64,000 bases of DNA from a virus (lineage: Duplodnaviria; Caudoviricetes): positions 7,528 to 71,527 of IMG/VR virus record IMGVR_UViG_2767802019_000001. One strand, written 5' to 3'. The notes below the pieces were generated by a model. It made no database searches, was not told the DNA's origin, and saw nothing but the letters and a program-made list of their open reading frames with translations. Each line of letters begins with the position of its first letter. The first letter of the stretch is position 1. The translations under genes were made by a program, and so were the position numbers. Positions 2,575 to 59,404 of this stretch are shown here, piece by piece.

Positions 2575-2769
2575 ATGGAACTCGACTACGAGAAGCTGCT
2601 CACCCCTTCCGAGGTGGCTGAGATCTTCCGCGTGGACACGAAGACGGTAGCCCGCTGGGCAGATGCGGGAAAGCTGACGTCGGTCCGCACGCTTGGCGGG
2701 CACCGCCGCTACCGCGACTCGGAGGTGCGGGCCGCGTACGAATCCGCACCGGGAAAGCAGGCCGCATGA
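2575..2769 (+). CDS. bldC: BldC-like MerR-type HTH protein
   Basis: LLTPSEVAEIFRVDTKTVARWADAGKLTSVRTLGGHRRYRDSEVRA closely matches the BldC core as recalled; AGGAGG RBS at 2561-2566. Confidence 0.88.
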   Translation: MELDYEKLLTPSEVAEIFRVDTKTVARWADAGKLTSVRTLGGHRRYRDSEVRAAYESAPGKQAA

Positions 2770-2907
2770 GGCTGCTCCGCGCACTGGTGCACCGCCTCTT
2801 CCCGCGCCTGCACTGGTGGGCAGAGGCGGCGCGCGGTCCGCTGCGCTGGATATGCGCCGGCTGCGGCGCACGGACTTACGAACTCCCGTGAGGGCGGTGG
2901 TGATCCC

Positions 2908-3111
2908 ATGACCCAGCTCAGCATCAACATCAACGACGACACTGAAGCAAAGCTTCCCTGGTACGCGGGACGTAAGGGGACCTCGGTCACCGAGACCGTT
3001 CGTCGCGCCGTTGCCCTGCTCGAACTTGTCGAGCGGGAAACCGCTGAAGGGGGAGAGGTTCTTCTGAAATCGAAGGACGGAAAGTCCGTACGCGAACTCT
3101 GGCTGGCCTGA
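2908..3111 (+). CDS. Ribbon-helix-helix (CopG-like) DNA-binding protein
   Basis: MTQLSINI beta strand then helices ..GTSVTETVRRAVALL. Confidence 0.7.
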   Translation: MTQLSININDDTEAKLPWYAGRKGTSVTETVRRAVALLELVERETAEGGEVLLKSKDGKSVRELWLA

Positions 3112-3158
3112 CTCGGCAGCCGTCCACATCTCACTCACCCGAAACGAAAGAAGGCCAA

Positions 3159-3974
3159 GTGACAACCCCTAACCCCTTCGCGCAGCCTGACAAGGGCGAC
3201 CGGTTCACGCCGCGCGACCACCCCGAATGGCTGGGCAAGCTGTTCATCATCTACCCGGACAGCGTCAACCAGCATCAGGGCACTGACGACAAGGGCCAGC
3301 CGCAGATGTACGAGGCGGTCGAGGCCGATGTCGCGATTGTCGACCTGCCCAATCCCGAAACGGGGCAGCCGACGACGCTGACCAATGCACGCATCGCGGG
3401 CAAGGGCCTGGTCCCGCAGATCAGGAAGCACTGCGGTGGCGGCATGGTCTTGGGGCGCCTGTCCCAGTCGCCGCCGAACGGCCGGAACTCTGGCGCCTAC
3501 TTCCTCGCGGAGTACACCGACGCCGACGTCCAATTGGCGACGCAGTACATCAACGCCCACCCGCGCAACGCCTTCACTCAGCCGACCGCGCAGCAGGCGC
3601 CTGCGCCCGCCCCGGCGCAGCAGCAGGCGTGGGGGCAGCAGCCGCAGAACGTGCCGGGCTACGGCGGTCCGCAGGCGCAGCCGCAGTACGCCTCGCAGCA
3701 GCTGCCGTACGACCCGTGGCAGGGCACGCCGGGGGCGGCAGCGCCGCAGCCTCAGGCGGCCCCGGCGGGCCCTCCGCCGGGGCAGTGGCAGCCCCCTGCC
3801 GCTTCGCCGCAGGCAGCCCCTGCCCAGACCGCCCCTGCCTCAGCATCTGCCGCCCTTGACCCGGCGCTGGTCGCGTTCCTCCAGTCGAAGGGCGTCAACC
3901 CCGAGGGGATGACACCCGAGCAGGCAACGATGATCGCGAACACTCTCCAGACGCAGGAGCGGCCGCCCTTCTAG
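3159..3974 (+). CDS. Putative single-stranded DNA-binding protein
   Basis: Globular N-terminal ~140 aa, Gln/Pro/Ala linker, C-terminal PPF tail as in SSBs; located in recombination module. Confidence 0.6.
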   Translation: MTTPNPFAQPDKGDRFTPRDHPEWLGKLFIIYPDSVNQHQGTDDKGQPQMYEAVEADVAIVDLPNPETGQPTTLTNARIAGKGLVPQIRKHCGGGMVLGRLSQSPPNGRNSGAYFLAEYTDADVQLATQYINAHPRNAFTQPTAQQAPAPAPAQQQAWGQQPQNVPGYGGPQAQPQYASQQLPYDPWQGTPGAAAPQPQAAPAGPPPGQWQPPAASPQAAPAQTAPASASAALDPALVAFLQSKGVNPEGMTPEQATMIANTLQTQERPPF

Positions 3975-3994
3975 TACCACCGCACCACCACGAC

Positions 3995-4024
3995 GGACGC
4001 ACCCGATGGGTCGCGTCCTTTTTT
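3995..4024 (+). terminator. Intrinsic terminator
   Basis: GGACGCACCC-GAT-GGGTCGCGTCC stem followed by TTTTTT. Confidence 0.75.
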
Positions 4025-4150
4025 CATGTCCGGCACCGGGGGCCCGTCCAGATGCGGGCCCCTTCGTCATGCGGGCAGGGACGGGCATCCGACGCCTTCG
4101 CGTCCCGCCCCTGTCCGCTTGATGAAGCACCCACCCGCGAGAGGAATCAC

Positions 4151-4729
4151 ATGCTCAGCATGACCAAGAACGCAGGACCCGAGGCTCTGACCGGTATTGC
4201 GGTGCTGCAAGCCGGGGTCGCCTGGAAGACGTCGGGCGGCGGGCAGAAGGGGTGGCGCGGCAAGCTGAAGCGCGCTCAGGGCACCGACCTGGATCTCGCC
4301 TGTGTCGCTCTGTCCGAGGGCCGCGCGGTGCGTATGTGCTGGTTCGACAATGAGGACGCCTTCGACAACGGCTCTCTGGTCACCACCGGCGACAACACAT
4401 CCGGCAAGGGCGACGGCGACGACGAAACGGTCATCGCCCGCCTGGACCAGGTGCCGCCCGGCATCGACGCCCTCGTGTTCATCGTGTCCGCCTACAAGGA
4501 GGGCGTGTCCTTCTCGAACGTCGAGGGGATCACGCTCAACGTCTACGACGGCGGCCCCGGCGGCAAGCTGCTCGGCCAGTACTGGCCGGACATCGACAGC
4601 CGCAACAACGCGTGCGTCATGGCGAAGGCGAGGCGGGGAGCGGACGGCTGGACGATCGAGGTCGTGAATGAGATGGGCAACGCCCGCTCCCGCGACGCCC
4701 TGCTTCAGCTCGCGAAGCAGTACGCGTGA
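4151..4729 (+). CDS. TerD-family (TerD/TerZ-like) protein
   Basis: DLDLAC and GDNTSGKGDGDDETV acidic Ca-binding-type motif; GAGGA RBS at 4141. Confidence 0.88.
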   Translation: MLSMTKNAGPEALTGIAVLQAGVAWKTSGGGQKGWRGKLKRAQGTDLDLACVALSEGRAVRMCWFDNEDAFDNGSLVTTGDNTSGKGDGDDETVIARLDQVPPGIDALVFIVSAYKEGVSFSNVEGITLNVYDGGPGGKLLGQYWPDIDSRNNACVMAKARRGADGWTIEVVNEMGNARSRDALLQLAKQYA

Positions 4730-5138: not shown

Positions 5139-6053
5139 ATGACAGAGAACCTGATCGCCCACGCAATTGCTGCGGTGCAGCGGGGCTGGCACGTATTCCC
5201 CTGCAATTCCGCCGGGACCCGCTGCCCCCAGTCCGGTGACGTCATCGACAAGCAGCCGCACCTGATCGTGCCGGACAAGCCGTACAAGATCCGGTGGGGG
5301 GAGTGGGCCACCACCGACCTGGACCGCGTGATCGAGGCCTGGACGTACGCGCCGTCCGCCAACGTCGCGATCGCCTGCGCACCTTCGGGGCTGCTGGTTG
5401 TCGACTGCGACATCTGCAAGGGACCCGGCCAGCTGGAGGGCACACCGTACGCGGCGCTGCACGAGAAGCTCGGTCCGCTGGTCGACGGCACCGACGTGCT
5501 GCGCCACCTGTGCGAGCTGTACGGCGGCGACTGGGACGACCTGATGGACACCTACCGGGTGCAGACCGGACGGCTGGGACTGCACCTGTACTTCCGGTGG
5601 CCGCCGGGCCTCACCGCGTCGCAGGCCTCGCCCGTCAAGGGCCTGGTCGACGTGCGCGGCAACGGCGGGGAGCGCGGCGGCTACGTGCTCGCGGCCGGCT
5701 CGCGCACCACGTCCGGCCCCTACATCGCGGAGAACGACGCGCCCGTGCGCGACGCCCCGCCCTGGCTGGTCGAGTTGTGCCGCGAGAAGCCCCGCCCCGC
5801 GCGAGCGCTGTTCGCGCAGCCGCGCAGGACGGGCAACCGGTCCGGGCTGATCGACATGGTGCGCAACGCGCCGCCCGGCAACCGGTCCAACGCCCTGTTC
5901 TACGCGGCCCGCTGCTACTGCTCCGACGGCGTCGCCATCGAGACGGCCATCGGCGAACTCGCGGAGGCGTACACCGGCCGCGGCGGACACCGCCAGGCGG
6001 CAGCGTCCGTCAGATCTGCCTATCGAAATCAATCACGCAAAGAAGGGCTCTGA
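5139..6053 (+). CDS. Bifunctional DNA primase/polymerase (prim-pol) with C-terminal PriCT-like domain
   Basis: RGWHVFPC, ANVAIAC..GLLVVDCD, QTGRLGLHLYF, VDVRG..GGYVLAAGS, GNRSNALFYAA. Confidence 0.88.
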   Translation: MTENLIAHAIAAVQRGWHVFPCNSAGTRCPQSGDVIDKQPHLIVPDKPYKIRWGEWATTDLDRVIEAWTYAPSANVAIACAPSGLLVVDCDICKGPGQLEGTPYAALHEKLGPLVDGTDVLRHLCELYGGDWDDLMDTYRVQTGRLGLHLYFRWPPGLTASQASPVKGLVDVRGNGGERGGYVLAAGSRTTSGPYIAENDAPVRDAPPWLVELCREKPRPARALFAQPRRTGNRSGLIDMVRNAPPGNRSNALFYAARCYCSDGVAIETAIGELAEAYTGRGGHRQAAASVRSAYRNQSRKEGL

Positions 6054-6055
6054 CC

Positions 6056-6205
6056 ATGTGGGAATTCGTTCTGCTGCTGTTCGCCGTCATTTGTCTCGGA
6101 CTGGCGGCGCTCAACGTCCCTGCCTCGCGCGTATCGCTCGGCTGGCTGGGGCTGTTCTTCTTCGTGCTCGTTCCGTTCATCCACGAACTGGAGAAGCTGC
6201 GATGA
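6056..6205 (+). CDS. Small two-TM membrane protein
   Basis: MWEFVLLLFAVICLGLAALNVPASRVSLGWLGLFFFVL. Confidence 0.6.
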   Translation: MWEFVLLLFAVICLGLAALNVPASRVSLGWLGLFFFVLVPFIHELEKLR

Positions 6206-6657
6206 GCACGTCCACGAACGGCATCCTCGTCTACGGATACGACCTCGCCGGAGGCGACGCGGAATGGAAGGTACGCGAGGTCGGCGAGTACGGAGAGCTG
6301 AAGCTCGACTGGCTGGACGATGAGAACGATGACTTCTGGACGGCGGCAGAGAAGCGCCTGCTGGCCGCTGCCGGATTCACGGAGACCGACTACACGGCTG
6401 ACGGCTACTTCAAACGCGAGCGTGAAGCGAAGGGCTGCACCGGAGTTGAGATCGAGTCGTACTGTTCCGGCGACTACCCGATGTATCTGCTCGCCGCGAA
6501 GGGCTCGGTCACGACGGCGTACCGGGGCGACTGCGAGCAGGTCGACTTCACCGTCAATCCCGAATGGGACGCCAAGCTGCGCGCCGCCCTGGAAGTCCTC
6601 GGCATGACGCCGACGCAGGAGCGGGCGCAGTGGCTGCTCTGCTCGTGCTGGGGGTAG
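6202..6657 (+). CDS. Hypothetical phage protein
   Basis: ATGA coupling, normal codon bias. Confidence 0.65.
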   Translation: MSTSTNGILVYGYDLAGGDAEWKVREVGEYGELKLDWLDDENDDFWTAAEKRLLAAAGFTETDYTADGYFKREREAKGCTGVEIESYCSGDYPMYLLAAKGSVTTAYRGDCEQVDFTVNPEWDAKLRAALEVLGMTPTQERAQWLLCSCWG

Positions 6658-6660
6658 CCG

Positions 6661-7083
6661 ATGCCCCGCCCCGTCATCACGTGCGCCCACTGCGGCAAGG
6701 AGGCCGTGCACAAGGCGCGCGGCTGGTGCAAGAGCTGCTACCGCCGCTGGCTCTACTGCGGTAAGCCTCCGGACGGCCTGCCGCCCCGGCGCGTGATCCC
6801 GTGTGGCACGACGCGCGGATGGGAGAAGCACAAGCGCGACCGCACACCGCCCTGTCACGCCTGCCGTACGGCGCACAACAAGCAGGTGCGCGGGCACAGG
6901 AAGAAGACGGGCAAGGAGCGGTACTACAGCGAATGGACCGATGAGGCCGACTGGACCGGAGGGCAGCAGCGCGCCGCAGAGCGTGCCGAGAATGCATCAA
7001 CAGGCCCGGACGATTACCGCCTCCTGCTCGAAGCGCTCGGACTCGCACAGTTCTCGGCACAGCAGGAGCGGGACAGCGCCTGA
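6661..7083 (+). CDS. Cys/His-rich Zn-binding phage protein
   Basis: CAHC, CKSC, CGT..HKR..PCHAC motifs. Confidence 0.6.
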   Translation: MPRPVITCAHCGKEAVHKARGWCKSCYRRWLYCGKPPDGLPPRRVIPCGTTRGWEKHKRDRTPPCHACRTAHNKQVRGHRKKTGKERYYSEWTDEADWTGGQQRAAERAENASTGPDDYRLLLEALGLAQFSAQQERDSA

Positions 7084-7250
7084 CCCCACCTGCAAGCCGC
7101 ACCACACCAGGGGTGTCGCAGCCTGGCGGATACCCGACACCGCTTGCGCCCGCTGAAGCGGCGGGCGTAGAGCGGAGCACATCAACCCGCGCACCCCGGC
7201 CAGCGATTGGCGTCGCCGACCGGGGCACTTGACCAGGAGAGCTGACCTCC

Positions 7251-8060
7251 ATGGCCCGCAAGAAAGGTAGCGCCGCACCCCCTGCGGCGATCAAGAGTTC
7301 TGACAGGTTTCCCGTTTCCTCTTCTGACGCCTCGCGCGTCCTGACCCTGCTCGCCGTCATCGCGGCCGTAGCCACCATCGCCCTCACCGGCGGCGCCTTC
7401 TGGCTTTCGTACGAACACCTGCATGACGTCGCCGCGGCCCAGGGGCTTCAGCACTCGCCCGCCAGGGCGTGGGCATGGCCCGGCACCGTCGACATGTTCA
7501 TCGTCGTCGGCGAGGTACTGATCCTGCGCGCCTCGCTGATGCGGCGCATCGACTGGTGGGCCATCGCGCTCGCCGTCGCCGGATCGCTCGGCTCCATCGC
7601 ACTGAACGTCGCGGGCGTCGGCACCGGAGCCGAACCGATGGACTACGTGGTGGCCGCAGTGCCGCCCGTCGCCGCGCTGCTCGCCTTCGGCGCGCTCATG
7701 CGCCAAGTCCACGAAGCCATTGCGCGGCGCGTCGCAACGCCCGGCGTTGCAGTGCCACGCACCCCCGTTGCAGCCATCTGCGCGGCACCCCTGCGCCCCG
7801 TCTTCCGGTGGGCCGACGCGGTTCCTGCGGGGGTGCGGCTGCTGCCGCTCGTGGCGGCGGGCGCAACGCCCGTGGCGGTGCCGTCGCAGGGGCGTGGCGA
7901 GATGCTGACGACCAGTGAGGTCGCGGAGCGGCTGAACGTCAGCCCAAACACGGTCCGGTCCTACAAGCACCGCGGCACCCTGACCCCCGTTGCAGCCGAC
8001 CCCGGGGGCGGGCACCTCTTCGACGCCCGGGATGTGGAGAAGCTGCGGGGTGCGCCGTGA
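7251..8060 (+). CDS. DUF2637/SpdA-like membrane protein with C-terminal MerR-like HTH
   Basis: GAFWLSYEHLHDVA..AWAWPGTVD..SIALNV..AAVPPVA pattern, four TM segments; LTTSEVAERLNVSPNTVRSY HTH. Confidence 0.8.
   Translation: MARKKGSAAPPAAIKSSDRFPVSSSDASRVLTLLAVIAAVATIALTGGAFWLSYEHLHDVAAAQGLQHSPARAWAWPGTVDMFIVVGEVLILRASLMRRIDWWAIALAVAGSLGSIALNVAGVGTGAEPMDYVVAAVPPVAALLAFGALMRQVHEAIARRVATPGVAVPRTPVAAICAAPLRPVFRWADAVPAGVRLLPLVAAGATPVAVPSQGRGEMLTTSEVAERLNVSPNTVRSYKHRGTLTPVAADPGGGHLFDARDVEKLRGAP
7733..7994. repeat. Cluster 1 of SCGTTGCR 8-mers (candidate TraB recognition sequences)
   Basis: Copies at 7733(rev), 7744, 7765, 7862(rev), 7987. Confidence 0.7.
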
Positions 8061-10252
8061 GCATCCCCGACGGCGCCACGGGGACGGTCATCAACGGGAC
8101 AGAGCAGAAGGTCACGTTCAAGAAGGTCGGAGCGGACGACAAACGGGAGACGTACGCGCTCGATCCTGATGCGCCGCCGATGCCCGTCGACACCCCGCAA
8201 GTCGCAGCCGACACGGGTACGTGGGCGGAGCAGCGCCGCGCTGACCTCACGGACGCGCCCGCGGTGCTGCCGACCTGGCTGCGCAGCGTGCGCGAGTTCG
8301 CCGTCAATATGCGCTGGACGCTGGCCTACTGCGTCCACTTCGGGGCGTTCCACCTGCTGCGCCTGCCGGTCTACCTGATCCGGCTGCTGCTGTGTGCCCC
8401 GCGCGGCACCGGGCGGCTCATCGTCCGGTGGGGCAAGTGGGTCGCGGACACCGAGGCGCGGCCGGTGACGGCCAGGGCCGCGGCGACAGCCGACATCGAG
8501 GCGTGGCTGGCCCTGTCGCGGGAGCACTCGCGCAGGGTGAGGCCGCGGCGCATCGCATCCCTGGCCCTCGCGGGCGCAGTGTTGCTGATCCTGTTTGTGG
8601 CCGCGCTGGCCGTGCCGCTGTGGTGCGGGGGCGCGGTGACCGCGGCCCTGGCTCTGGCCGGTGTGCATGGCCGACGCGGGGACAAGCCGATCGTCACCCG
8701 CTACCTGTCCATCCACCTCCAGCGTCCGCTGGACTCCGAGGAGCTGGCTCAGGCGATCGAGGCGATCGGCGTCAAGGGCACGCCGCGGTTCGTCGCGCCG
8801 ATCGCGGTCGACGGCCCCGGATGGCTGGCGCAGGTGGACCTGCCCGGCGCGACGCTCGCGGAACTGCTGCTGGACAAGCGCAAGGAGCTGGCCGCCGCGA
8901 TGCGGCGCCCGTTGCAGTGCGTCTGGCCGTCGGTGGGCTCCGAGCATCCGGGGCGCGCGAACATCTGGGTCGCGAAGAAGGACCCGCGCACGATTCTGCG
9001 GCCGTGGCCGCTGCTCGCCGGGGGCGCAGCGGACATGTACGGGGAGATCCCCTTCGGCGTCACGCCCAAGGGCGACCGTGAGCCGCTCGCCGTCATCGCG
9101 ACCAACATGCTCATCGGCGGCGTCATGGGCTCCGGGAAGACGTCGGCGGTGTGCACGATCGCATGCGCCGGGGCGCTGGATCCCACCTGCGAGGAGTGGC
9201 TGTTCGAGCTGAAGGGCTCGGGTGACCTTGAGGGCCTCAGGCCCATCTGTCACCGCTACGTGCAGGGTGACGACGACGAGCACTGCGAGGCCGCGCTGGA
9301 CGGGGGCTACGCCCTGGAGAGGGAGATGAAGCGGCGCAAGAAGACCGTCGCCGGTCTCCCCGTCGCGGATGTGCCGACCGGGCGCAAGGTGACCCGCAAG
9401 CTCTCGGACAAGTACCCGCACCTGCACCTGCACCCCATCCTCGCGATCTTCGACGAGGTGCACACGCTGTTCGAGCACCCCGTGTACGGCAAGGAGGCAG
9501 AGGCGGTCTTCGCCCGGCTGATCCGCAAGGCGCGGGCGTACGGCATCATCCTGGTGCTGACCACGCAGCGGCCCGACGCGAAGTCGATCCCCAAAAAGAT
9601 CAGCGACAACGCGATCGTGCGCTTCTGCCTCGCGATCACCGGACACACCGCGAATGACCTGGTGCTGGGCACCGGCATGTACAAGCGGGGGATCCGCGCG
9701 AACATCTTCGAGCCCGCCGAAGGAGACGATCCGAAGGACTCCGGGACCGGGTGGCTCGCCCGCTCCGCGACCAACGCGAAGATCGTGCGGGCGTATTTCA
9801 TCCCGCAGGCGGACGTGCGTGATGTCGGCCGGCGCGGCCTCGCCCTGCGGACCGCAGCCGGAACGCTGTCGGGCGAGGCCGCTGGCCAGCAGATCGAGAA
9901 GCCCGACCGCACGACCATCGCCGACCACGTCCACGCCATCTGGCCGGACGGCGCTGACGCGGTGCACAGCCACCGGCTGGTCGAGTCGCTCGCGCTGTAT
10001 CTGCCGGAGCTGTACGGCTCGTGGATGGAGACAGAGAAGCCTGTCGCAGAGATGAGCCCGGACGAAGTACGCGACGTCCAGGCCGTCCGTTCCACGGCGC
10101 TGTCGGCCGCCCTCAAGGTGCACAAGATCCCGACTCGGCAGATCACCATCCGGGACTGCTGCGGGGGAGCGAAGGGCGTGCGCTACGCCGACCTCCCCGA
10201 GCCCAGGGGCGCCGACGAGGACGACGAAGACCCGGCTTCGGCAGGGGTCTGA
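8057..10252 (+). CDS. traB: TraB-like FtsK/SpoIIIE conjugal DNA translocase
   Basis: N-terminal TM segments, NMLIGGVMGSGKT Walker A, ILAIFDEVH Walker B, RKARAYGIILVLTTQRP, C-terminal putative winged helix; architecture of Streptomyces plasmid Tra proteins. Confidence 0.88.
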   Translation: MSIPDGATGTVINGTEQKVTFKKVGADDKRETYALDPDAPPMPVDTPQVAADTGTWAEQRRADLTDAPAVLPTWLRSVREFAVNMRWTLAYCVHFGAFHLLRLPVYLIRLLLCAPRGTGRLIVRWGKWVADTEARPVTARAAATADIEAWLALSREHSRRVRPRRIASLALAGAVLLILFVAALAVPLWCGGAVTAALALAGVHGRRGDKPIVTRYLSIHLQRPLDSEELAQAIEAIGVKGTPRFVAPIAVDGPGWLAQVDLPGATLAELLLDKRKELAAAMRRPLQCVWPSVGSEHPGRANIWVAKKDPRTILRPWPLLAGGAADMYGEIPFGVTPKGDREPLAVIATNMLIGGVMGSGKTSAVCTIACAGALDPTCEEWLFELKGSGDLEGLRPICHRYVQGDDDEHCEAALDGGYALEREMKRRKKTVAGLPVADVPTGRKVTRKLSDKYPHLHLHPILAIFDEVHTLFEHPVYGKEAEAVFARLIRKARAYGIILVLTTQRPDAKSIPKKISDNAIVRFCLAITGHTANDLVLGTGMYKRGIRANIFEPAEGDDPKDSGTGWLARSATNAKIVRAYFIPQADVRDVGRRGLALRTAAGTLSGEAAGQQIEKPDRTTIADHVHAIWPDGADAVHSHRLVESLALYLPELYGSWMETEKPVAEMSPDEVRDVQAVRSTALSAALKVHKIPTRQITIRDCCGGAKGVRYADLPEPRGADEDDEDPASAGV

Positions 10253-16887: not shown

Positions 16888-17295
16888 GTGATAACCGTAC
16901 CCATCAACCTCGAACACATCCTGGACGACCACCGCGTGCACGAGTTGGACGCCTCGTACCTGCACTACGACTGCGACGACCCGTACGCGGTGATGCTCGA
17001 CATCGGCGAAACGGGCACAGACCAGCGCATCGAATGGACCCTCGCCCGCGACACGCTCGCCGACGGCATCACCACCCCCGCGGGCGCGGGCCGCGGCGAC
17101 GTCACTGTCTGGCCGTGCGAGGGCGGCATCCACATCCAGTTGTGCAGCCCCGAAGGGGAAGCGCATCTGCACGCGGACGCCGGGCAGATCGAGGCGTTCC
17201 TCACCCAGTCCTACGCGATGGTGCCGCTCGGCTGCGAGCTGGACGGCATCGACGTCGGTGCCGAACTCAACAAGATCTTCGGAAAGGCAGCCTGA
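16888..17295 (+). CDS. ssgA: SsgA-like protein (SALP, sporulation/cell-division regulator family)
   Basis: LHYDCDDPYAV, IEWTLARDTLADG..AGRGDVTVWP, LCSPEGEA, FLTQSYAMVPLGCE hallmark SALP motifs; GGGAG RBS. Confidence 0.88.
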   Translation: MITVPINLEHILDDHRVHELDASYLHYDCDDPYAVMLDIGETGTDQRIEWTLARDTLADGITTPAGAGRGDVTVWPCEGGIHIQLCSPEGEAHLHADAGQIEAFLTQSYAMVPLGCELDGIDVGAELNKIFGKAA

Positions 17296-27790: not shown

Positions 27791-28936
27791 ATGGGGCACG
27801 ACCACAACAAGCACCGCAAGATCAAGGGCGGCGCCCAGACCCAGCGCGCCCTGGCCACGACGGGCATCACTGCTCTCGTGGGAACCGGCATGGCGATGAC
27901 CGGGGCAGGCACGGCAGATGCCGCCCCGGTCGGCGTATGGGACAAGGTCGCTGCGTGCGAGTCCGGCAACCGCTGGAACATCAACACCGGCAACGGGTAC
28001 TACGGCGGGCTTCAGTTCAGCGCGTCGACCTGGCGCGGCTACGGCGGGGCGAAGTACGCATCCCGTGCCGATCTCGCGACCAAGGCACAGCAGATCCAGA
28101 TAGCCGAGAAGGTGCTCAAGGGGCAGGGCCCCGGAGCGTGGCCCGTGTGCGGTAAGCGGGCCGGCCTCACCCGGGGCGGCCCTGCTCCTGCGGCGCCGAA
28201 GGCAGCCGCGCCCAAGGCGGCGCCCGCCGCGCCGAAGGCGGCCGTCAGCGGCACCGCGGCGAAGGCTGTCGCGTACGCCCTGGCGCAGCGCGGCAAGCCG
28301 TACATCTGGGGCGCCACCGGGCCCAACGCGTATGACTGTTCCGGCCTGGTGCAGGCGGCTTGGCGAATTGCGGGCGTCTCGATCCCGCGTACGTCTCAGG
28401 CGCAGCTGGCCGGACTGAAACGGGTCTCACCGTCACAGGTACGGCCCGGCGATCTGGTGATCTACCGGGGCGGCGCTCACGTCGCTATGTACATTGGCGG
28501 CGGCAAGATCGTCGAGGCGTCGAAGCCCGGCACCTCCATCCGCACTGCGTCCTGGCGCAGCGGCTGGTACGCCAGCGCCTTCACCGCCGTCGTACGGCCC
28601 GCTGGCTCGACAGCAGGGGGGCCTGCGGACACGGCCGCCCCTGCCATGCCGAAGGCCAAGGGGCCCGCCATGAACAAGGGCGAGCCCGCCAATCCGAGGG
28701 CAGCGGCCAAGGCCAAGGGTGCCGAGCAGCACAGGGCTGCACCCCGCACGGGCAGGTTCCCTGCCACGTGGGACGGCAAGGCGTACAAGGTCAGGAGCGG
28801 TGACTACCTGTCACGCATAGCCGCGCAGCACAACATCAGCGGCGGATGGCACGCACTGTACGCAGGCAACCGCAAGACCGTCGGCAGCAACCCGCACCTG
28901 ATCCATCCCGGCCAGACCCTGCGTTTGTCCAGCTAG
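27791..28936 (+). CDS. rpf: Secreted Rpf transglycosylase + NlpC/P60 + LysM peptidoglycan hydrolase
   Basis: Signal peptide ..ADA; WDKVAACESGNRWNINTGNGYYGGLQF (Rpf); PYIWGATGPNAYDCSG..HVAMY (NlpC/P60); YKVRSGDYLSRIA..LIHPGQTL (LysM). Confidence 0.93.
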   Translation: MGHDHNKHRKIKGGAQTQRALATTGITALVGTGMAMTGAGTADAAPVGVWDKVAACESGNRWNINTGNGYYGGLQFSASTWRGYGGAKYASRADLATKAQQIQIAEKVLKGQGPGAWPVCGKRAGLTRGGPAPAAPKAAAPKAAPAAPKAAVSGTAAKAVAYALAQRGKPYIWGATGPNAYDCSGLVQAAWRIAGVSIPRTSQAQLAGLKRVSPSQVRPGDLVIYRGGAHVAMYIGGGKIVEASKPGTSIRTASWRSGWYASAFTAVVRPAGSTAGGPADTAAPAMPKAKGPAMNKGEPANPRAAAKAKGAEQHRAAPRTGRFPATWDGKAYKVRSGDYLSRIAAQHNISGGWHALYAGNRKTVGSNPHLIHPGQTLRLSS

Positions 28937-42260: not shown

Positions 42261-42264
42261 CCTG

Positions 42265-43443: not shown

Positions 43444-43450
43444 TCGGTGC

Positions 43451-43528
43451 GGCCCGGCCGGGGTCCGCGGGTACCCCGGCCGGGCCCGTGCACAGCAAAG
43501 CCCCCGGCATCGGACCGGGGGCTTTGCT
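43451..43528. terminator. Two tandem perfect 14-bp hairpins (bidirectional terminators)
   Basis: GGCCCGGCCGGGGT/ACCCCGGCCGGGCC (43451-43486) and AGCAAAGCCCCCGG/CCGGGGGCTTTGCT (43494-43528). Confidence 0.8.
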
Positions 43529-43536
43529 CTGGCTGG

Positions 43537-43872
43537 TCAGTGTGCCTTGTCGTATGCCTCGCGGACTGACGCGGGGACACGCCCGCGGTCATTGACCTCG
43601 AACCCGTTCTCTTTCGCCCAGGCGCGGACTGCGGCGGTGTCCTGGCTGCTGCCCGCCTTGCGCGGCTTGCTCTTGCCTGCGGTACCCCGCACGCGACGGG
43701 CGCCGTCGGCAGTCAGATAGGGCGAGAGCCTTTCGAGAAGGTCGTCGTAATTGTCGGGCGTCAGGTCGATTTCCACGCCTGCGCCATTGACGAGAATCGT
43801 GTGCGTGCTGATCTCTTCCGACTCTTCGCCGGTCAGGTCATCGATATAGGTAACCACAGTCTTTTGAGCCAT
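43537..43872 (-). CDS. lsr2: Lsr2-family nucleoid-associated/xenogeneic silencer
   Basis: MAQKTVVTYIDDLTG..EIDL dimerisation domain; VRAWAKENGFEVNDRGRVP DNA-binding domain with RGR hook. Confidence 0.95.
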   Translation of the reverse strand: MAQKTVVTYIDDLTGEESEEISTHTILVNGAGVEIDLTPDNYDDLLERLSPYLTADGARRVRGTAGKSKPRKAGSSQDTAAVRAWAKENGFEVNDRGRVPASVREAYDKAH

Positions 43873-43878
43873 GACCGG

Positions 43879-43906
43879 ATGTTACCCCACATTTCCGCGA
43901 CGCCAA
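43879..43906 (-). promoter_or_regulatory. Leaderless promoter of lsr2
   Basis: Minus strand TTGGCG-N16-TAACAT-N6-ATG, no RBS. Confidence 0.55.
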
Positions 43907-43945
43907 CCCTGAGTTTCAAATCCCGTGATCGAAAGGTAACCCGCG

Positions 43946-44368: not shown

Positions 44369-44382
44369 CTCTTGCTCTGGGC

Positions 44383-44658: not shown

Positions 44659-44680
44659 ATAGCGAGGGTGGTGCACGGTC

Positions 44681-47600: not shown

Positions 47601-48994
47601 GGGCCGGCGGCCATGAAGCCGTCGCTGCGCTGCGCAGCCAGGCAATGGGCGGCGCGAATGTGCGCACGTACTCCGACGGTGACCACCGGTTCGGTGACGG
47701 CGGCGGCATCTTCGGGACGGGGTGGGGCGGGGACTTCGGTCCCGATCTGGTTCCTGACGGCATCATCAAGAACGCCCTTGGCAAGTTGAAGGACTTGGCC
47801 CTGGGTGCGATCTCTGGCCCCTTCGGGGCGGCAGTCGACGGTGTGGCCAAGCTGGGCAAGGGGGCGGTCCGCAAGGTTGTCCCGGGCGACGGCACCGCCC
47901 TGGAGAACATGGGCGTCGGCATGATCGACGAGATGGCCAAGACCGCCAAGTCCTGGGTGTCGGACAACGACGTTGCCCCGGACACCGGGGGCGGGGGCGG
48001 ATTCATTCCGTGGGCGAAGTGGAAGTCTGGAGACGGCAACAAGCAGACGTACGGCGGGGTTGTTGTCAACCGGCGTACCGCGGCGATGCTCGGTCACGCA
48101 GCCAAGCTGGCCAAGACGAGCTTCTCAATGATGCAGGGCAGTTTCAACAACGGCGTCAAGGCGTCTGGCGGTACGCACTCCGGTGGCGGGGCGGTCGACC
48201 TCGGCCCTGCTAGGGACTCGATTGTCGGCGCTATGCGTTCGTCCGGGTTCGCGGCCTGGCGCCGCACGCCGGCTGAAGGATTTGTGCCGCACATCCATGG
48301 CATCGCCGTGGGCGACCCGACGGTGAGCAGCGCCGCCGCGCAGCAGGTCCGGGACTTCCATGCGGGAAAGAACGGACTGGCCGACGGAGGACCCGACACC
48401 TATAAGGGCGGGATCACTTCCGGCAAGTCGGTGTCTGCGGCCAAGGCAACCGGCAAGAGCCTGAATGCAGGTCGCGGCTGGTCGTCTCACTGGTCTGCTC
48501 TGGAAGCCCTGTGGAATCGCGAATCAGGCTGGCGCTGGAATGCAGATAACCCCAGCTCAGACGCGTACGGCATTCCCCAAAGTTTGCCGGGATCGAAAAT
48601 GAAGAGCGCGGGTGCGGACTGGAAGACAAATCCCGCAACGCAGATCAAGTGGGGTTTGGGATATATTAAGTCGCGTTATGGAAACCCCTCCAAGGCCAAT
48701 TCATTTCAGAAGTCGAACAACTGGTACGGCCTTGGAACTCCGGGCGCCCGCAGCGGGCCCGCGATCGTGGGCGAGCACGGTCCCGAACTGGTCGGTTTCC
48801 GGGGCGGCGAGCGCGTCGAGTCCAATGCCGCATTGCGGGATCTGGTCGGCAACGGCGGCACGACGACCGTCGAGGTGAACGTGCCCGTCACCGTCCAGGG
48901 CAATGCGACGCCGGGCACGGTCGACAAGCTGCAACGCGAGCTGGTCCCGAAGCTGACCATGGCCATCAAGCAAGGGGTGGGGAGGCGACCGTGA
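44681..48994 (+). CDS. Tape measure protein with C-terminal peptidase-like and lytic transglycosylase domains
   Basis: 1437 aa, Trp-periodic helical repeats; SGGTHSGGGAVD..PHIH; RESGW..NPSSDAYGIPQ..QIKWGLGYIKSRYG. Confidence 0.93.
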   Translation: MATITSLAFTVTSTYSGAGLRRARRDISDFDNGLRAMDKAASNIGKQLTSVTNAALAFAPALVPIAVAATGVAGGLAAAGAAAGLAAGVFGGALFGAIKATNGATKSARDALEKQKETLAGLTPGTKAYEEQLKKVNEAKKNLKTIIDGLTPVQQKYVKATSDMKGAWGEFIKATEKDTLTPVSIVMGALARNFEKFTPLVKAVSPVITRLAKDFAAWMDGPGLDQFIDIMVAQGVPALENFIKSAQRMLGVLGQGFRDFLPYGNRLFESIAAGAKSANSWGEGGGFTRFLDKVHSVAPDVREFFSALVTALGNIAKAAADLSGDSFSVLTVLLKVLGSLPPELLANLVRAWLAWNAALLVYNVVAGIAATVTAVLAIAASGMGIIFLGMALTIGLVVVALAALAVGIYFLVKNWDTVLAALKTAWNATWNAVKTTALAVWNFISQGWGQLLLGLMGPIGVLIFIATHWSEIWGGIKTAAFAVWGALRTGWSNFLGWLSAGWGAVWGALTVAWQGFIGPFVEMWNTVWPEVQLAAQNIWNALSAAWAVLWAGATFVWSGFWASFGPVFTTAWASLIASGIAVWNVFTAAWRLVWAVITSVYQVGWAILSGSWQVGWAWLAGAAQTAWSILIGFWRVVWATVTGIWNVFYATFSATFSGAWNVIAAIATGIWNVIKAAWQALWAVVTAVFLAFAAVFTGRWGAAWNAIKDAASAVWNVLRTAWQALLNVLLAAFAAFAGVFTAAFRATWTAIQNIATAAWNALRSSFQVFLTALQNLWNTAWTAIRNIFQTILNNIVSIAQAAWNLMRAAVQAFITAVAGIWNTGWTAIRTFFQTAANGISAAAGALWDKLREIFSTGSTWLRNTFWNPVRDFFTKTIPNAFDSAVKAIGKAWDALKKVVMAPVQAIVNVVYNSGIRKLWNVVATKFGASELPEFKLPGFAKGGEVNGPGSGTSDSIVARLSAGEHVWTAKEVAGAGGHEAVAALRSQAMGGANVRTYSDGDHRFGDGGGIFGTGWGGDFGPDLVPDGIIKNALGKLKDLALGAISGPFGAAVDGVAKLGKGAVRKVVPGDGTALENMGVGMIDEMAKTAKSWVSDNDVAPDTGGGGGFIPWAKWKSGDGNKQTYGGVVVNRRTAAMLGHAAKLAKTSFSMMQGSFNNGVKASGGTHSGGGAVDLGPARDSIVGAMRSSGFAAWRRTPAEGFVPHIHGIAVGDPTVSSAAAQQVRDFHAGKNGLADGGPDTYKGGITSGKSVSAAKATGKSLNAGRGWSSHWSALEALWNRESGWRWNADNPSSDAYGIPQSLPGSKMKSAGADWKTNPATQIKWGLGYIKSRYGNPSKANSFQKSNNWYGLGTPGARSGPAIVGEHGPELVGFRGGERVESNAALRDLVGNGGTTTVEVNVPVTVQGNATPGTVDKLQRELVPKLTMAIKQGVGRRP

Positions 48995-57275: not shown

Positions 57276-57282
57276 TCTGCGT

Positions 57283-57897
57283 CTACTTCAGCCCCGCCTT
57301 CAGCTTCGCCAGTTCAGGGCCGGCGTCCTTGGCGGGCATCTTCCACCGGTACGTCTGGCCCTCGCCGTCGGTGTAGACCAGCGTGCCGCCGCGCTGCGCC
57401 TCGGTGATGTCGAAGACCTGGCTGCGCCACTGGAAGCTGTCCGGCTGGATCGGGCCCGCGTTGGTGAAGCCCTTGGCGTTGACGCTGGGTGCGCTGAAGC
57501 CGTTGTTCTCGGCTGTCTCGCCGTCGGGTGCGATCCACTGCCAGCCCTTTGCTTCGGCGGGTACGGTCTCCGAGGCGGCGACGCCTCTGGTGGACTTCGC
57601 CTTGTAGGCGACGACCGCGAACACTTCCTCTTCCGGTGTCTGGCCGGTGCCCTTTGTGACGTAGGCGATCGTGGACGGCGTGATGTCGAGCATGCCGCCA
57701 CCGCCTCCCCCCAGTGGATGGGCCGCGCCGGCGGTGTGCGCCGTTGTGCCCAGAGCGGGGGCTTCCGGCTTGGCGGTGGGCGATTCGGCCCGGGTGGGCT
57801 CCTTGGGGTTCTTGCCCGCGTCGCCGTCACCTCCGCACGAGGCGACGGACAGGGCCGCAGCGGCAGCCAGGACGAGGACTTTGGGTGTCGGGCGCAT
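57283..57897 (-). CDS. Lipoprotein moron (DUF4352-like Ig fold possible)
   Basis: MRPTPKVLVLAAAAALSVAS-C lipobox; convergent on lysis cassette. Confidence 0.75.
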   Translation of the reverse strand: MRPTPKVLVLAAAAALSVASCGGDGDAGKNPKEPTRAESPTAKPEAPALGTTAHTAGAAHPLGGGGGGMLDITPSTIAYVTKGTGQTPEEEVFAVVAYKAKSTRGVAASETVPAEAKGWQWIAPDGETAENNGFSAPSVNAKGFTNAGPIQPDSFQWRSQVFDITEAQRGGTLVYTDGEGQTYRWKMPAKDAGPELAKLKAGLK

Positions 57898-57994
57898 GGC
57901 ATCCCCCGGTTGTGTCGATAACGCACCGTACCGGTCCCGATACAGAGCGGGCGTATGTTGTGCAGAATCCGGCGCCCCGCTGCACGCTGGATCC

Positions 57995-58207
57995 ATGGCA
58001 TCCGTGATAGTCGTGCACCGCCCGTCCCCGAGCGGCGGGCGCCGCGTGACGGTGGGGTCCGCGATCCTAGGGCTCGCCCACGATGACCGCGACCTCATCG
58101 AGTTCCTGCGCCGGGCCGGGCTGGAGGATGCCGAGGCACTGGTGCTGGGGGATTCGCCGTTGATCCATTGGTGGGGCGGGCGGGCCCACGAGTACGCGGC
58201 GGCGTAG
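57995..58207 (+). CDS. Small hypothetical protein
   Basis: HRPSPSGGRRVT..LGLAHDDRDLIEFLRRAGL; CACGCT-N6-ATG leaderless arrangement. Confidence 0.7.
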   Translation: MASVIVVHRPSPSGGRRVTVGSAILGLAHDDRDLIEFLRRAGLEDAEALVLGDSPLIHWWGGRAHEYAAA

Positions 58208-58256
58208 GTATCCACAGGTACATCCGTTCCCCGGCGCTCTGTCCTACGGTGCCCGC

Positions 58257-58439
58257 ATGGATCAAGAGATGCGCCTGCCGCTGCTGACCCTGGACGAAGC
58301 CCACGACGTCATCGACGTCCTGGCGCGCGGCGCCGCGACCGGTGACGTGGAGGCGGAACGCCTGCTCTGCGAGCTGGCCGCGCGGGTGCCGTCGCGGGAT
58401 GTCACCCATACGGGTGACGGTGCCTGCACTGCATGGTGA
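58257..58439 (+). CDS. Small protein (DUF6417-like)
   Basis: LTLDEAHDV..L..ELAARVPS; TACGGT-N6-ATG. Confidence 0.6.
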   Translation: MDQEMRLPLLTLDEAHDVIDVLARGAATGDVEAERLLCELAARVPSRDVTHTGDGACTAW

Positions 58440-58537
58440 CCATGACCCGTCAGTGCGTACGGTCGGGGCGTGCCCGGCGGAACGGGTGCCGCATTGTGCA
58501 ACGCGGGCGTACCCCGCTGCACCGAGTCCGGCGGGTA

Positions 58538-59404
58538 TCACCTTGCGGTGAGTGCCCGCCGCGCCGCGTTGATCAGGTTGTGCGCGTCGGCGCCGTAGAC
58601 CGCGGACTCGCGCAGCGTGTCCCAGACGCGGAGATAGGTGGCCACGCTGACCGCATCGTCGATCCACAGCTCCGCATGCCAGTCCTCGACGATCACGAGC
58701 CGTTCGTCGTAGACCCAGAAGCTGTTGCCCGGGAAGATCTTCAGCGATGCCGTGAAGGGGACGATCCCCAGTTCCACCGTGTCCAGCCCGATGGCGCTGG
58801 CGAGGTGGTGGAGCTGGGCGGCAAGGACCGACGGCGGGCAGATGAGGGAGCGCAGTGCCCCTTCCCACATCATGACCCGGTGCTGGCGGCCTGCCTGGTA
58901 CAGCCTCTCCTGCCGCTGGATCCGGGCGCGTACGGCGTCCTCGGTGTCCCGCCGCGGCGGCGGCAGCTGCATCAGGTCGGCGTGCCGGGTGAGTACGTGA
59001 CGGGCGTAGTCCGGGATCTGGAGCAGACCGGGGACGAGGCAGCTCTCCCAGATGGTGAGCACCCGTGTCCGTTTGTGCTCTGCCGCGGCGGCGTCCTGTA
59101 CGGATTTGTGTCCCGCGGAGAGCTGACGGCGCCATGAGCGGATGTGGGACTCGAAGCCCCGTAGCCGGGCGAGCAGTTCACTGTAGGCATCGGGGTGACC
59201 GGTCCCGTCTGCCCACGCACGCAGGTCGTCTGCTGTCGCCGTCTGCCTGCCGTTCTCCAGCATGCTGACTTTGACTTTGCTCCATCCCGGCCCGAGCCGT
59301 TCAGCGAGCTGGGTACCGGTGAGCCGTCCCTCAGGGGCCGTTAACCGCAGCTCCCGGAGGCGGACTCCGAGATCCTCGCGTGCCTGCTGATAGTCCGTGC
59401 TCAC
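58538..59404 (-). CDS. XRE-family HTH + DUF5753 regulator (WhiJ/Scr1-like), TTA at codon 21
   Basis: LGVRLRELR..QLAERLG.W...KVS.LENGRQ; VPGLLQ..DYAR; TTA at 59342-59344. Confidence 0.88.
   Translation of the reverse strand: MSTDYQQAREDLGVRLRELRLTAPEGRLTGTQLAERLGPGWSKVKVSMLENGRQTATADDLRAWADGTGHPDAYSELLARLRGFESHIRSWRRQLSAGHKSVQDAAAAEHKRTRVLTIWESCLVPGLLQIPDYARHVLTRHADLMQLPPPRRDTEDAVRARIQRQERLYQAGRQHRVMMWEGALRSLICPPSVLAAQLHHLASAIGLDTVELGIVPFTASLKIFPGNSFWVYDERLVIVEDWHAELWIDDAVSVATYLRVWDTLRESAVYGADAHNLINAARRALTAR

What the first reader, a model, noticed from the sequence alone, without database searches (positions are those of the whole stretch)
2575..59404. A coordinated 'host life-cycle' toolkit: BldC, TerD, SsgA, Rpf, Lsr2 and a bldA-dependent XRE
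Seen: one phage carries homologues touching sporulation timing (BldC), differentiation and Ca2+ (TerD), septation (SsgA), spore germination (Rpf), silencing (Lsr2) and a TTA-gated regulator. Inference: the phage may couple its cycle to, and steer, the Streptomyces developmental programme. Together with TraB this suggests a mycelium-adapted lifestyle rather than simple lysis.
Basis: inference. Interest (0 to 1): 0.7.

Follow-up and report, generated by a model that had tools for sequence, protein, structure and literature searches.

The report
Streptomyces prophage with host-development gene set
A temperate Streptomyces phage really does carry its own versions of six host growth-and-sporulation genes, and five of them are kept in the same places in six related prophages, but they sit in separate transcription units and nothing yet shows that they act as one programme.

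Summary
The 71.5-kb IMG/VR provirus encodes a BldC-family protein, TerD, an SsgA-like protein, a secreted Rpf-NlpC/P60-LysM hydrolase, Lsr2, and an XRE-DUF5753 (WhiJ-type) regulator with one in-frame TTA, plus a plasmid-type TraB. I found six syntenic relatives: three IMG/VR proviruses and three prophages in named Streptomyces genomes. All seven keep BldC-like, SsgA-like, Rpf fusion, antisense Lsr2 and the antisense DUF6879/XRE pair at the same positions. dN/dS is near the genome median, so these are maintained phage genes, not host flank. The "coordinated toolkit" reading is only partly supported:
- The genes lie in at least four transcription units (early operon, head of the late operon, two antisense units).
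- TerD is present in one of seven members.
- The TTA is absent from all six XRE orthologues.
- Four of seven BldC copies have lost His46.
- Three independent SsgA-carrying phages hold none of the other genes tested.
- Cultured Streptomyces phages that I checked hold at most two of the six.

Phage-borne SsgA, Lsr2 and WhiB, and the idea that phages manipulate development, are already published. This is an unusually rich, conserved example, with a BldC paralogue not seen in cultured Streptomyces phages. No expression or phenotype data exist.

The parts
2566..2769 (+). BldC-family small winged-HTH protein (67 aa; alternative ATG start at 2575), in the early operon
   Evidence: NF033787 95.4 bits against cutoff 77. 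PDB 6AMA E 1.3e-22. K26, R30, H46, R47, R48, W31 and the head-to-tail interface residues are kept; T29A, K33D and I40V are changed. Conserved in all 7 clade members and in 4 more distant capsid relatives.
4052..4729 (+). TerD-domain protein (225 aa), a sporadic accessory gene
   Evidence: PF02342 61 bits. Ca-binding motif aligned with 2KXT. Absent from the six clade relatives; present only in distant relative G005. Found in 28 Streptomyces phage records.
7251..8060 (+). DUF2637 membrane protein with C-terminal MerR/HTH_17 domain, upstream partner of TraB
   Evidence: PF10935 52 bits and HTH_17 31 bits. Conserved next to TraB in relatives.
8057..10252 (+). TraB-like FtsK/SpoIIIE DNA translocase (731 aa)
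   Evidence: PF01580 27.2 bits against cutoff 24. 32-35% identity to FtsK/SpoIIIE proteins of small Streptomyces plasmids, including NC_007431. Present in 6 of 7 clade members.
16888..17295 (+). SsgA-like protein (SALP, 135 aa); its start overlaps the upstream stop, in the early operon
   Evidence: PF04686 90 bits. PDB 6SLC/3CM1. Below the SsgD equivalog cutoff, 73 against 185. The seven phage copies form one clade (99/98 support) apart from all host paralogues and from Dagobah.
27791..28936 (+). Secreted Rpf + NlpC/P60 (RipA-like) + LysM peptidoglycan hydrolase, first gene of the late block
   Evidence: PF06737 117, PF00877 78 and PF01476 28 bits. About 60% identity to the RpfB catalytic domain, with CESG Glu and the Cys pair. 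The N-terminal signal-peptide-like segment is read from the sequence. Conserved in all 7 members.
43537..43872 (-). Lsr2 (111 aa), an antisense moron between tail genes
   Evidence: PF11774 59.9 bits. C-terminal DNA-binding domain matches 6QKQ/2KNG. The RGRVP motif is invariant in 7 copies. Antisense at the same place in all members.
43451..43531 (.). Two hairpins (14-nt perfect and 17-nt stems) between the convergent ends of the tail-gene block and Lsr2
   Evidence: the repeat finder and the sequence itself.
43879..43884 (-). TAACAT -10-like hexamer, 6 nt upstream of the Lsr2 ATG (leaderless-type layout)
   Evidence: Read directly from the sequence. The consensus sigma-70 scan found nothing here, so this is an inference.
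58538..59404 (-). XRE HTH_31 + DUF5753 (WhiJ-type architecture) regulator, 288 aa, with a single TTA at codon 21 (59342-59344)
   Evidence: Pfam. Conserved GTG start, and TTA absent from the orthologues. Conserved in 7 of 7 members. Homologue in phage Kromp gp29.
59417..60166 (-). DUF6879 protein (249 aa), upstream partner of the XRE gene
   Evidence: PF21806 166 bits. Conserved in 7 of 7 members. Kromp gp30 is a homologue, E 2e-18, in the same order.
62847..63560 (-). Truncated paralogue of the C-terminal half of the clade's large serine integrase; marks the integrase end of the prophage
   Evidence: 43% identity to residues 304-511 of the 516-aa integrase of G014. That integrase has PF00239 plus a Zn ribbon. 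No integrase family is found inside the record.

Best explanation
The window is most of a temperate, serine-integrase siphophage of Streptomyces. Its lineage has accumulated, and inherits vertically, a set of separate accessory genes derived from host families. They are not one co-regulated toolkit; they fall into different expression classes.

1. Early operon: a BldC-family DNA-filament protein, an optional TerD, DUF2637 + TraB, and a phage-specific SsgA-like protein.
2. Head of the late block: a secreted Rpf-RipA-like-LysM wall hydrolase.
3. Two antisense, probably lysogen-expressed units: Lsr2, and a DUF6879 -> XRE-DUF5753 cassette near the integrase end.

Each most likely acts on its own at its own stage.
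- The SsgA-like protein and the wall hydrolase act on host septation and wall (inferred from the families).
- Lsr2 silences or counter-silences AT-rich DNA. The phage's own AT-rich late region is a likely target (inferred).
- The BldC-like protein and the XRE/DUF6879 pair are as likely to regulate the phage (early gene control, immunity or defence) as the host.

Shown here: presence, integrity, synteny, purifying selection and lineage restriction. Inferred: every functional statement.
For: - Seven syntenic prophages share the set. This record, G001, G002 and G004 are IMG/VR proviruses. G013-G015 lie in Streptomyces sp. NPDC088747, NPDC046925 and NPDC059009. Identities: BldC-like 57-83%, SsgA-like 43-90%, Rpf fusion 55-82%, Lsr2 46-88%, XRE 58-67%, DUF6879 47-76%.
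- dN/dS of these genes is 0.14-0.33, against a genome median of 0.27.
- Phage SsgA-like proteins are monophyletic (99/98) and distinct from host paralogues.
- Separate units: SsgA overlaps the upstream stop in the plus-strand early block. Lsr2 is antisense, with its own -10-like box and two hairpins. XRE and DUF6879 are antisense next to the integrase end, and the same two-gene order recurs in unrelated temperate phage Kromp.
- A large serine integrase flanks the right end in G013-G015.
- Gene content varies: TerD in 1 of 7, TraB in 6 of 7.
- TTA is not conserved.
- The host BldC core is invariant while phage copies diverge to 57-85%, and H46 is replaced in 4 of 7. D29 Gp36 shows that a small phage MerR-like protein can regulate phage genes (PMC12266134).
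- All AT-rich islands (GC < 0.56) lie in the late region.
- Independent SsgA carriers lack the other genes.
Against: - No transcript, protein or phenotype data exist, so the expression classes rest on strand, overlap and hairpins only. The promoter scan was uninformative in this high-GC DNA.
- Joint retention of five genes through divergence to 43-60% protein identity would also be expected if they worked together.
- A more distant capsid relative (G007) again combines Lsr2, Rpf and DUF5753, which hints at more than chance.
- This phage's BldC copy keeps every base-reading residue of host BldC. BldC-type repeats are not enriched in the phage's own DNA, 11 found against 7.1 +/- 2.8 expected. 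That leans towards host targets for this member.
Confidence: 0.55

Rival explanations
1. One reading: the genes form a coordinated toolkit. Through it the phage couples its cycle to the Streptomyces developmental programme and steers it. BldC holds hyphae vegetative, SsgA redirects septation, Rpf wakes spores, Lsr2 rewires silencing, a bldA-gated regulator times it, and TraB spreads DNA through the mycelium.
For: - All the families are host life-cycle families, and five are co-retained in seven prophages.
- Each lysogen checked gains a second gene above the BldC-family cutoff.
- This phage's BldC copy keeps K26, R30, H46 and the oligomer interface.
- The literature already proposes that actinophages manipulate development through SsgA, WhiB and Lsr2 (PMC7650747). 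It also proposes that UUA can act as a life-cycle sensor in phage Hau3 (PMC10732093).
Against: - There are at least four transcription units on two strands.
- The TTA is absent from all six orthologues, and TTAs elsewhere in the clade are scattered in unrelated genes.
- TerD is in 1 of 7 members.
- H46 is lost in 4 of 7 BldC copies.
- Independent SsgA carriers have none of the other genes.
- The SsgA, Rpf and XRE proteins fall below the equivalog cutoffs of the named host proteins.
Confidence: 0.2
2. Phage housekeeping only: all conserved members serve the phage itself and development is not affected. On this reading:
- BldC-like is an early phage regulator or recombination directionality factor.
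- XRE-DUF5753 is the immunity repressor.
- Lsr2 is a self-silencer of the prophage, as CgpS is.
- The Rpf fusion is an auxiliary lysin.
- The SsgA-like protein assists lysis or release.
For: - BldC-like is the most widely kept of the set, at the same early-region position even in distant capsid relatives. It also passes the excisionase-domain model TIGR01764.
- D29 Gp36 is a precedent.
- No other XRE-type repressor candidate was found at either end.
- Rpf domains in phages are mostly parts of tape measures and lysins.
- AT-rich islands are confined to the late genes.
Against: - No phage-internal role is known for SsgA-like proteins, whose only known activities concern host septation and spore wall.
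- The phage already has an amidase-LysM endolysin with a holin-like neighbour.
- BldC-type repeats are not enriched in phage DNA.
- The BldC-like gene lies about 60 kb from the integrase in the prophage.
Confidence: 0.2
3. The genes are neutral hitch-hikers or host flank wrongly included in the provirus call.
For: - The record is a computationally trimmed provirus without its integrase.
- Genes at 57283-58439, 61618-61875 and 63851-64000 have no counterpart in most or all relatives.
Against: - All toolkit genes except TerD lie at syntenic positions in six other prophages, some integrated at different chromosomal sites.
- They show dN/dS far below 1.
Confidence: 0.03

Closest known systems
Streptomyces phages Dagobah (SsgA), Alderaan/Coruscant (WhiB), Coruscant/Endor1/Endor2 (Lsr2); Hardy et al. 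2020, PMC7650747
   Same: These are phage-encoded homologues of host developmental regulators, and the authors propose that phages manipulate development. In Dagobah the SsgA gene sits in the early region near a prim-pol gene, as it does here.
   Different: Each of those phages carries one or two such genes, whereas this lineage carries five to six. Dagobah's SsgA is an independent, distant capture (32% identity, separate branch). No WhiB is present here.
Host BldC of Streptomyces (PDB 6AMA/6AMK; PMC5859096, PMC6428758)
   Same: It is a 67-aa lone winged HTH that passes the curated BldC-family model. The core is 79% identical, and the base-reading and head-to-tail interface residues are kept in this phage.
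   Different: It is phage-borne and fast-evolving, while the host core is invariant. There are phosphate-contact changes T29A and K33D, and H46 is replaced in 4 of 7 clade copies. DNA targets have not been tested.
Mycobacteriophage D29 Gp36 and Xis-type small MerR-like proteins (PMC12266134)
   Same: These are small phage-encoded MerR-like wHTH proteins that bind direct repeats cooperatively and regulate phage genes.
   Different: Gp36 resembles BldC in structure only. The protein here is a sequence-level BldC-family member. The best cultured-phage hits are Microbacterium phage MerR-like proteins at no more than 57% identity, and none come from Streptomyces phages.
CgpS of Corynebacterium glutamicum prophage CGP3 and actinophage Lsr2 proteins (Pfeifer 2016/2019; Sharma 2021, PMC8612146)
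   Same: It is a phage-encoded Lsr2 in a temperate phage whose GC content is lower than its host's. About 35% of Streptomyces phages carry one.
   Different: Here Lsr2 coexists with an XRE/Cro-CI-type regulator, a combination that paper found negatively correlated. It is placed antisense inside the tail module.
Rpf motifs in mycobacteriophage tape measures; M. tuberculosis RpfB-RipA pair
   Same: The Rpf transglycosylase fold has its catalytic Glu, and the NlpC/P60 domain resembles RipA.
   Different: It is a free-standing, signal-peptide-bearing fusion of both enzymes with LysM. It is not part of the tape measure.
WhiJ-type XRE/DUF5753 regulators paired with DUF397 (BldB-like) proteins in Streptomyces (PMC10364602, PMC10294661)
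   Same: It has the same HTH-XRE + DUF5753 architecture and the same length.
   Different: Its partner is a DUF6879 protein, not DUF397. It falls below the Sco1979 equivalog cutoff. It is phage-borne and shared with phage Kromp.

Membership tests
BldC family (NF033787) | Score above the curated family cutoff | tested here: met
   95.4 bits against 77. Prophage copies in G013-G015 score 78-89 bits, against 107.5 for the chromosomal bldC.
BldC family (NF033787) | Lone ~68-aa winged HTH without coiled-coil or effector domain | tested here: met
   67 aa. Only HTH_17/MerR N-terminal domain hits.
BldC family (NF033787) | Base- and groove-reading residues K26, R30, H46 and the head-to-tail interface (L11, E16, F21, R22, V23, T42, L43, G44), as given in PMC5859096 | tested here: met
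   All are kept in this phage. Across the clade H46 becomes M, V or T in 4 of 7 copies, so the feature is not met clade-wide.
BldC family (NF033787) | Binds AATTNNNNC direct repeats and delays development | not testable with these tools
   Only a site count in the phage DNA was possible, and it showed no enrichment.
SsgA-like proteins (PF04686) | Single SsgA domain above the gathering score, about 130-145 aa | tested here: met
   90.3 bits against 25; 135 aa.
SsgA-like proteins (PF04686) | Orthology to a named host paralogue (SsgA, SsgB, SsgD and so on) | tested here: not met
   The best equivalog, SsgD, scores 73 bits against 185. In the tree the phage copies form a separate clade with 99/98 support.
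Rpf (PF06737 / NF046106) | Rpf transglycosylase domain with catalytic Glu and conserved Cys pair | tested here: met
   117 bits. The alignment to RpfB shows CESG and both Cys.
Rpf (PF06737 / NF046106) | Equivalog of the host resuscitation-promoting factor | tested here: not met
   123.8 bits against 180. The architecture is a fusion with NlpC/P60 and LysM.
TerD (PF02342) | TerD domain above cutoff, with the GDN..GDGDDE Ca-binding motif | tested here: met
   61 bits against 25.3. The motif aligns with 2KXT.
Lsr2 (PF11774) | N-terminal oligomerisation domain plus C-terminal RGR DNA-binding domain | tested here: met
   59.9 bits against 29.6. C-terminal match to 6QKQ/2KNG. RGRVP is invariant in 7 copies.
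WhiJ-type XRE regulators | HTH-XRE + DUF5753 architecture | tested here: met
   HTH_31 at residues 11-73, DUF5753 at 104-279.
WhiJ-type XRE regulators | Adjacent DUF397 (BldB-like) partner | tested here: not met
   The neighbours are DUF6879 and small ORFs without a DUF397 hit.
bldA-dependent (TTA-containing) genes | In-frame TTA codon | tested here: met
   Codon 21, downstream of the conserved GTG start.
bldA-dependent (TTA-containing) genes | TTA conserved in orthologues, as expected for a selected regulatory codon | tested here: not met
   None of the six orthologues has a TTA. Where read, the aligned codon is GTT, ATC or CTC.
Streptomyces plasmid TraB | FtsK/SpoIIIE ATPase domain, with homologues on Streptomyces conjugative plasmids | tested here: met
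   PF01580 27.2 bits against 24. 33 Streptomyces plasmid records, including the 12.6-kb NC_007431.
Streptomyces plasmid TraB | Cognate clt-type 8-bp repeats recognised by a C-terminal wHTH | not tested
   This is the subject of a separate finding on this window. I did not examine it.

The most novel reading that the evidence does not exclude
A lineage of temperate Streptomyces phages has maintained, over long divergence, a package that reprograms the host life cycle from inside the lysogen and during lytic growth:
- A BldC paralogue co-assembles with, or competes against, host BldC to prolong vegetative growth.
- A phage-specific SsgA-like protein redirects septation.
- A secreted Rpf-RipA fusion remodels walls or wakes neighbouring spores into the phage-sensitive state.
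- Lsr2 rewires silencing.
- TraB moves phage DNA between hyphal compartments.
Probability: 0.17. Interest if true: 0.8.

Novelty: new member of a known kind. Interest (0 to 1): 0.48.

Why it matters
Whether temperate phages alter Streptomyces development and antibiotic production is an open and little-tested question. This lineage offers the richest single set of candidate genes that I could find. It is present in at least three named, presumably culturable Streptomyces strains, so lysogen-against-cured and single-gene tests are straightforward. The BldC paralogue is of particular interest. It would be the first phage copy of a regulator whose host version is invariant. It gives every lysogen checked a second BldC-family gene.

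Tried and rejected
- An exact 41-mer from the record's right end was not found in genome contigs.
- The look-up of sequencing runs listed no run, and no RNA holder was listed.
Alignments A2 and A3 were prepared.
- Megablast of 42 kb of the window against 50,697 phage records gave only one 350-bp hit, so there is no cultured relative.
- Integrase families PF00589, PF07508 and PF00239 are absent from the record. This is explained by trimming just before the serine integrase.
- PADLOC gave no defence-system match for XRE, DUF6879, TerD or neighbours. The only hits were a generic small-HTH hit (mad1) for BldC-like and a weak methyltransferase-tail hit for Lsr2.
- The sigma-70 and terminator scans were uninformative.
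- BldC-site enrichment in phage DNA was not found.
- The alignment-based search for phage-type SsgA in genome contigs failed, because no stretch was conserved enough.
- The idea that XRE/DUF6879 or the left-end genes are host flank was rejected on synteny.
- The idea that g118 is the integrase was rejected: it is a truncated paralogue.

Full report
**What the window is.** The window is bases 7528-71527 of a single 71,527-bp IMG/VR record classed as a provirus with 100% estimated completeness. GC is 63-71% and no tRNA gene is present. Nearly all genes read on the plus strand. PHROGs recognises large terminase, portal, head protease, major capsid, a 1437-aa tape measure, a tail protein and an amidase endolysin at 34.6-56.9 kb. 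Prim-pol, a RepA/DnaB-like helicase, endonuclease VII and a C5 methyltransferase make up the early part. No cultured phage among 50,697 records is similar at the DNA level.

**Check of the observation.** Every named gene is there and passes a curated threshold.

| Gene | Window coordinates | Main evidence |
|---|---|---|
| BldC-like | 2566-2769 + | NCBIfam BldC-family model 95.4 bits, cutoff 77; solved BldC 6AMA at E 1.3e-22 |
| TerD | 4052-4729 + | Pfam 61 bits; Ca-binding motif |
| SsgA-like | 16888-17295 + | Pfam 90 bits; solved SsgA/SsgB structures |
| Rpf + NlpC/P60 + LysM | 27791-28936 + | Rpf 117, NlpC/P60 78, LysM 28 bits; catalytic Glu and Cys pair aligned to RpfB |
| Lsr2 | 43537-43872 - | N-terminal domain 59.9 bits; RGR DNA-binding domain |
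| XRE | 58538-59404 - | HTH_31 plus DUF5753, the architecture of WhiJ and its paralogues (PMC10364602) |
| TraB-like | 8057-10252 + | FtsK/SpoIIIE protein whose relatives sit on small Streptomyces plasmids |

The GTG start of the XRE gene is conserved in orthologues, so the TTA at codon 21 is inside the gene. It is the only TTA in about 20,400 called codons.

**Relatives and borders.** The capsid protein finds three full-length IMG/VR proviruses (G001, G002, G004; capsid 99, 84 and 69% identical). It also finds three prophages in large contigs of Streptomyces sp. NPDC088747, NPDC046925 and NPDC059009 (G013-G015). I fetched all six whole and compared them gene by gene. They are collinear with the window, although the chromosomal ones share only about 77% nucleotide identity with the others.
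- In G013-G015 a 500-516-aa large serine recombinase (Resolvase domain and Zn ribbon) lies at the right border next to host genes.
- The window's record contains no integrase family. It holds only a truncated paralogue of the integrase C-terminal half at 62847-63560.
- The record was evidently trimmed just before the integrase.
- The XRE/DUF6879 genes and the left-end genes are conserved in relatives, so they belong to the phage and are not host flank.

**Distribution of the six genes.**
- All seven clade members have the BldC-like gene, the SsgA-like gene, the Rpf fusion, the antisense Lsr2 between tail genes, and the antisense DUF6879 -> XRE-DUF5753 pair after the lysis genes.
- TraB is in six of seven members, and TerD only in this one.
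- At HMM level, more distant capsid relatives hold subsets: G007 has Lsr2, Rpf and DUF5753; G005 has Rpf and TerD; G011 and G012 have BldC-like and DUF5753.
- Counts in the cultured-phage collection:

| Gene | Phage records | Streptomyces phage records |
|---|---|---|
| BldC-like | 166 | 0 (best identity 57%) |
| SsgA | 2 | 1 (Dagobah) |
| TerD | 55 | 28 |
| Rpf domain | 172 | 6 |
| Lsr2 | 381 | 48 |
| XRE-DUF5753 | 3 | 3 |

- The phages I checked individually hold at most two of the six.
- Three independent SsgA carriers, all complete genomes (Dagobah, G017, G018), hold none of Lsr2, BldC-family or Rpf (for Dagobah and Rpf).
- The combination therefore belongs to one lineage. It is not an association that has arisen repeatedly.

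**Selection and history.**
- Nei-Gojobori dN/dS for the toolkit genes is 0.14-0.33 in the pairs G000-G001 and G002-G004, the same as the genome median of 0.27.
- There are two relaxed cases: SsgA at 0.78 in G002-G004, and DUF6879 at 0.81 in G000-G001.
- A maximum-likelihood tree of the seven phage SsgA-like proteins, eleven chromosomal paralogues from two host genomes, and Dagobah places the phage copies in one clade (99/98). That clade lies outside every host paralogue group, and Dagobah sits elsewhere. This indicates an old single capture followed by vertical descent.
- For BldC the picture differs. The 47-aa core of chromosomal BldC is identical in the three hosts and in S. coelicolor, while phage copies are 57-85% identical to it and 53-89% identical to each other.
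- This phage keeps K26, R30, H46, R47, R48, W31 and the head-to-tail interface described in PMC5859096.
- In G002, G004, G013 and G015, however, H46 is replaced. The H46E mutation abolishes DNA binding in host BldC.
- Each lysogen checked has exactly two genes above the BldC-family cutoff, the chromosomal one and the prophage one.

**Is it coordinated?** The layout argues against a single unit.
- BldC-like, TerD, TraB and SsgA-like lie in the plus-strand early block, and SsgA overlaps the preceding stop.
- The Rpf fusion opens the late block.
- Lsr2 is antisense, with a TAACAT box 6 nt before its ATG and two strong hairpins after its stop.
- DUF6879 and XRE are antisense near the integrase end. 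The same two-gene order, after the lysis genes and on the integrase strand, occurs in the unrelated temperate phage Kromp, whose gp30 is a DUF6879 homologue at E 2e-18. This pair is therefore a mobile cassette rather than a lone developmental regulator.
- No other repressor-like gene was found at either end. The XRE protein is thus also the best candidate for the phage's own repressor.
- The TTA is absent from all six orthologues. TTAs in the relatives (0-4 per genome) fall in unrelated genes. bldA dependence is literally true for this gene but shows no sign of being a selected feature.
- BldC-type direct repeats are not enriched in the phage DNA.
- All AT-rich islands lie in the late region, including the Lsr2 promoter region. 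That fits Lsr2-type silencing of late genes, as shown for CgpS, but it remains an inference.

**Comparison with what is known.**
- Hardy et al. 2020 reported SsgA in Dagobah, WhiB in Alderaan and Coruscant, and Lsr2 in Coruscant and Endor1/2. They proposed that phages manipulate host development.
- Sharma et al. 2021 found Lsr2 in about 35% of Streptomyces phages, enriched in temperate phages with lower GC. They also found Lsr2 negatively correlated with Cro/CI-type domains, whereas here both occur together.
- D29 Gp36 is a small phage MerR-like protein that regulates phage genes.
- UUA as a life-cycle sensor has been proposed for the phage Hau3 terminase.
- I found no paper reporting a phage or prophage BldC-family gene in Streptomyces. 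That search is limited to the held library.

**Verdict.** What is new is the richness and conservation of the set in one prophage lineage, a BldC paralogue, and a phage-specific SsgA-like clade. The kind of thing, phage copies of host developmental genes, is known. Coordination, bldA gating and developmental steering remain untested inferences.

Noticed in passing
window 58538-60166 (minus strand); L109 4433-5840: The DUF6879 -> XRE-DUF5753 two-gene cassette is conserved in all seven clade prophages and in the unrelated temperate phage Kromp (gp30/gp29). In each case it lies antisense, just after the lysis genes, on the integrase strand. It has no PADLOC match. It is a candidate immunity or defence module of unknown mechanism.
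   Followed up: partly
window 62847-63560 (minus strand); L099 11746-14443: A truncated paralogue of the C-terminal half of the large serine integrase sits beside the full-length integrase in G014 and G015. It is the only integrase-like remnant inside this record, which was evidently trimmed just before the integrase.
   Followed up: partly
G013:C1 and G015:C10 prophage flanks (L094-L098, L104-L108): Two different prophages of the clade, in two different Streptomyces species, have the same flanking genes: a TetR-like gene on the left, and a small membrane protein plus an ABC transporter on the right. That suggests a shared attB locus. G014 is integrated elsewhere.
   Followed up: no
window 44681-48994, residues about 1250-1350 of the tape measure: The tape measure matches PHROG transglycosylase and endolysin families near its C-terminus but has no Pfam Rpf hit. 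The phage therefore carries a second wall-degrading activity besides the free Rpf fusion and the amidase endolysin.
   Followed up: no
window 29201-29700 and 38551-48750: All 200-nt windows with GC below 0.56 lie in the late/structural region, including the 5' region of the Lsr2 gene. None lie in the early region.
   Followed up: partly
window 60249-60271: There is an AT-rich near-palindrome with two overlapping BldC-half-site-like matches. It lies in the divergent intergenic region between DUF6879 (minus strand) and the plus-strand gene at 60297, and could be an operator.
   Followed up: no
G000 6014-7366 (left of the window; L140): A C5-cytosine DNA methyltransferase of 450 aa is 99% identical in G001 and 81% in G002 and G004, which makes it among the most conserved genes of the clade.
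   Followed up: no
G007:C1:20202-20381: In a more distant metagenomic relative the Lsr2 N-terminal domain lies in a 261-aa open frame, much longer than the usual 110 aa. It may be a fusion or an extended form.
   Followed up: no
window 16888-17295 and 59417-60166: dN/dS is raised locally: 0.78 for the SsgA-like gene between G002 and G004, and 0.81 for DUF6879 between G000 and G001, against a genome median of 0.27. This suggests relaxed or diversifying selection in some branches.
   Followed up: no
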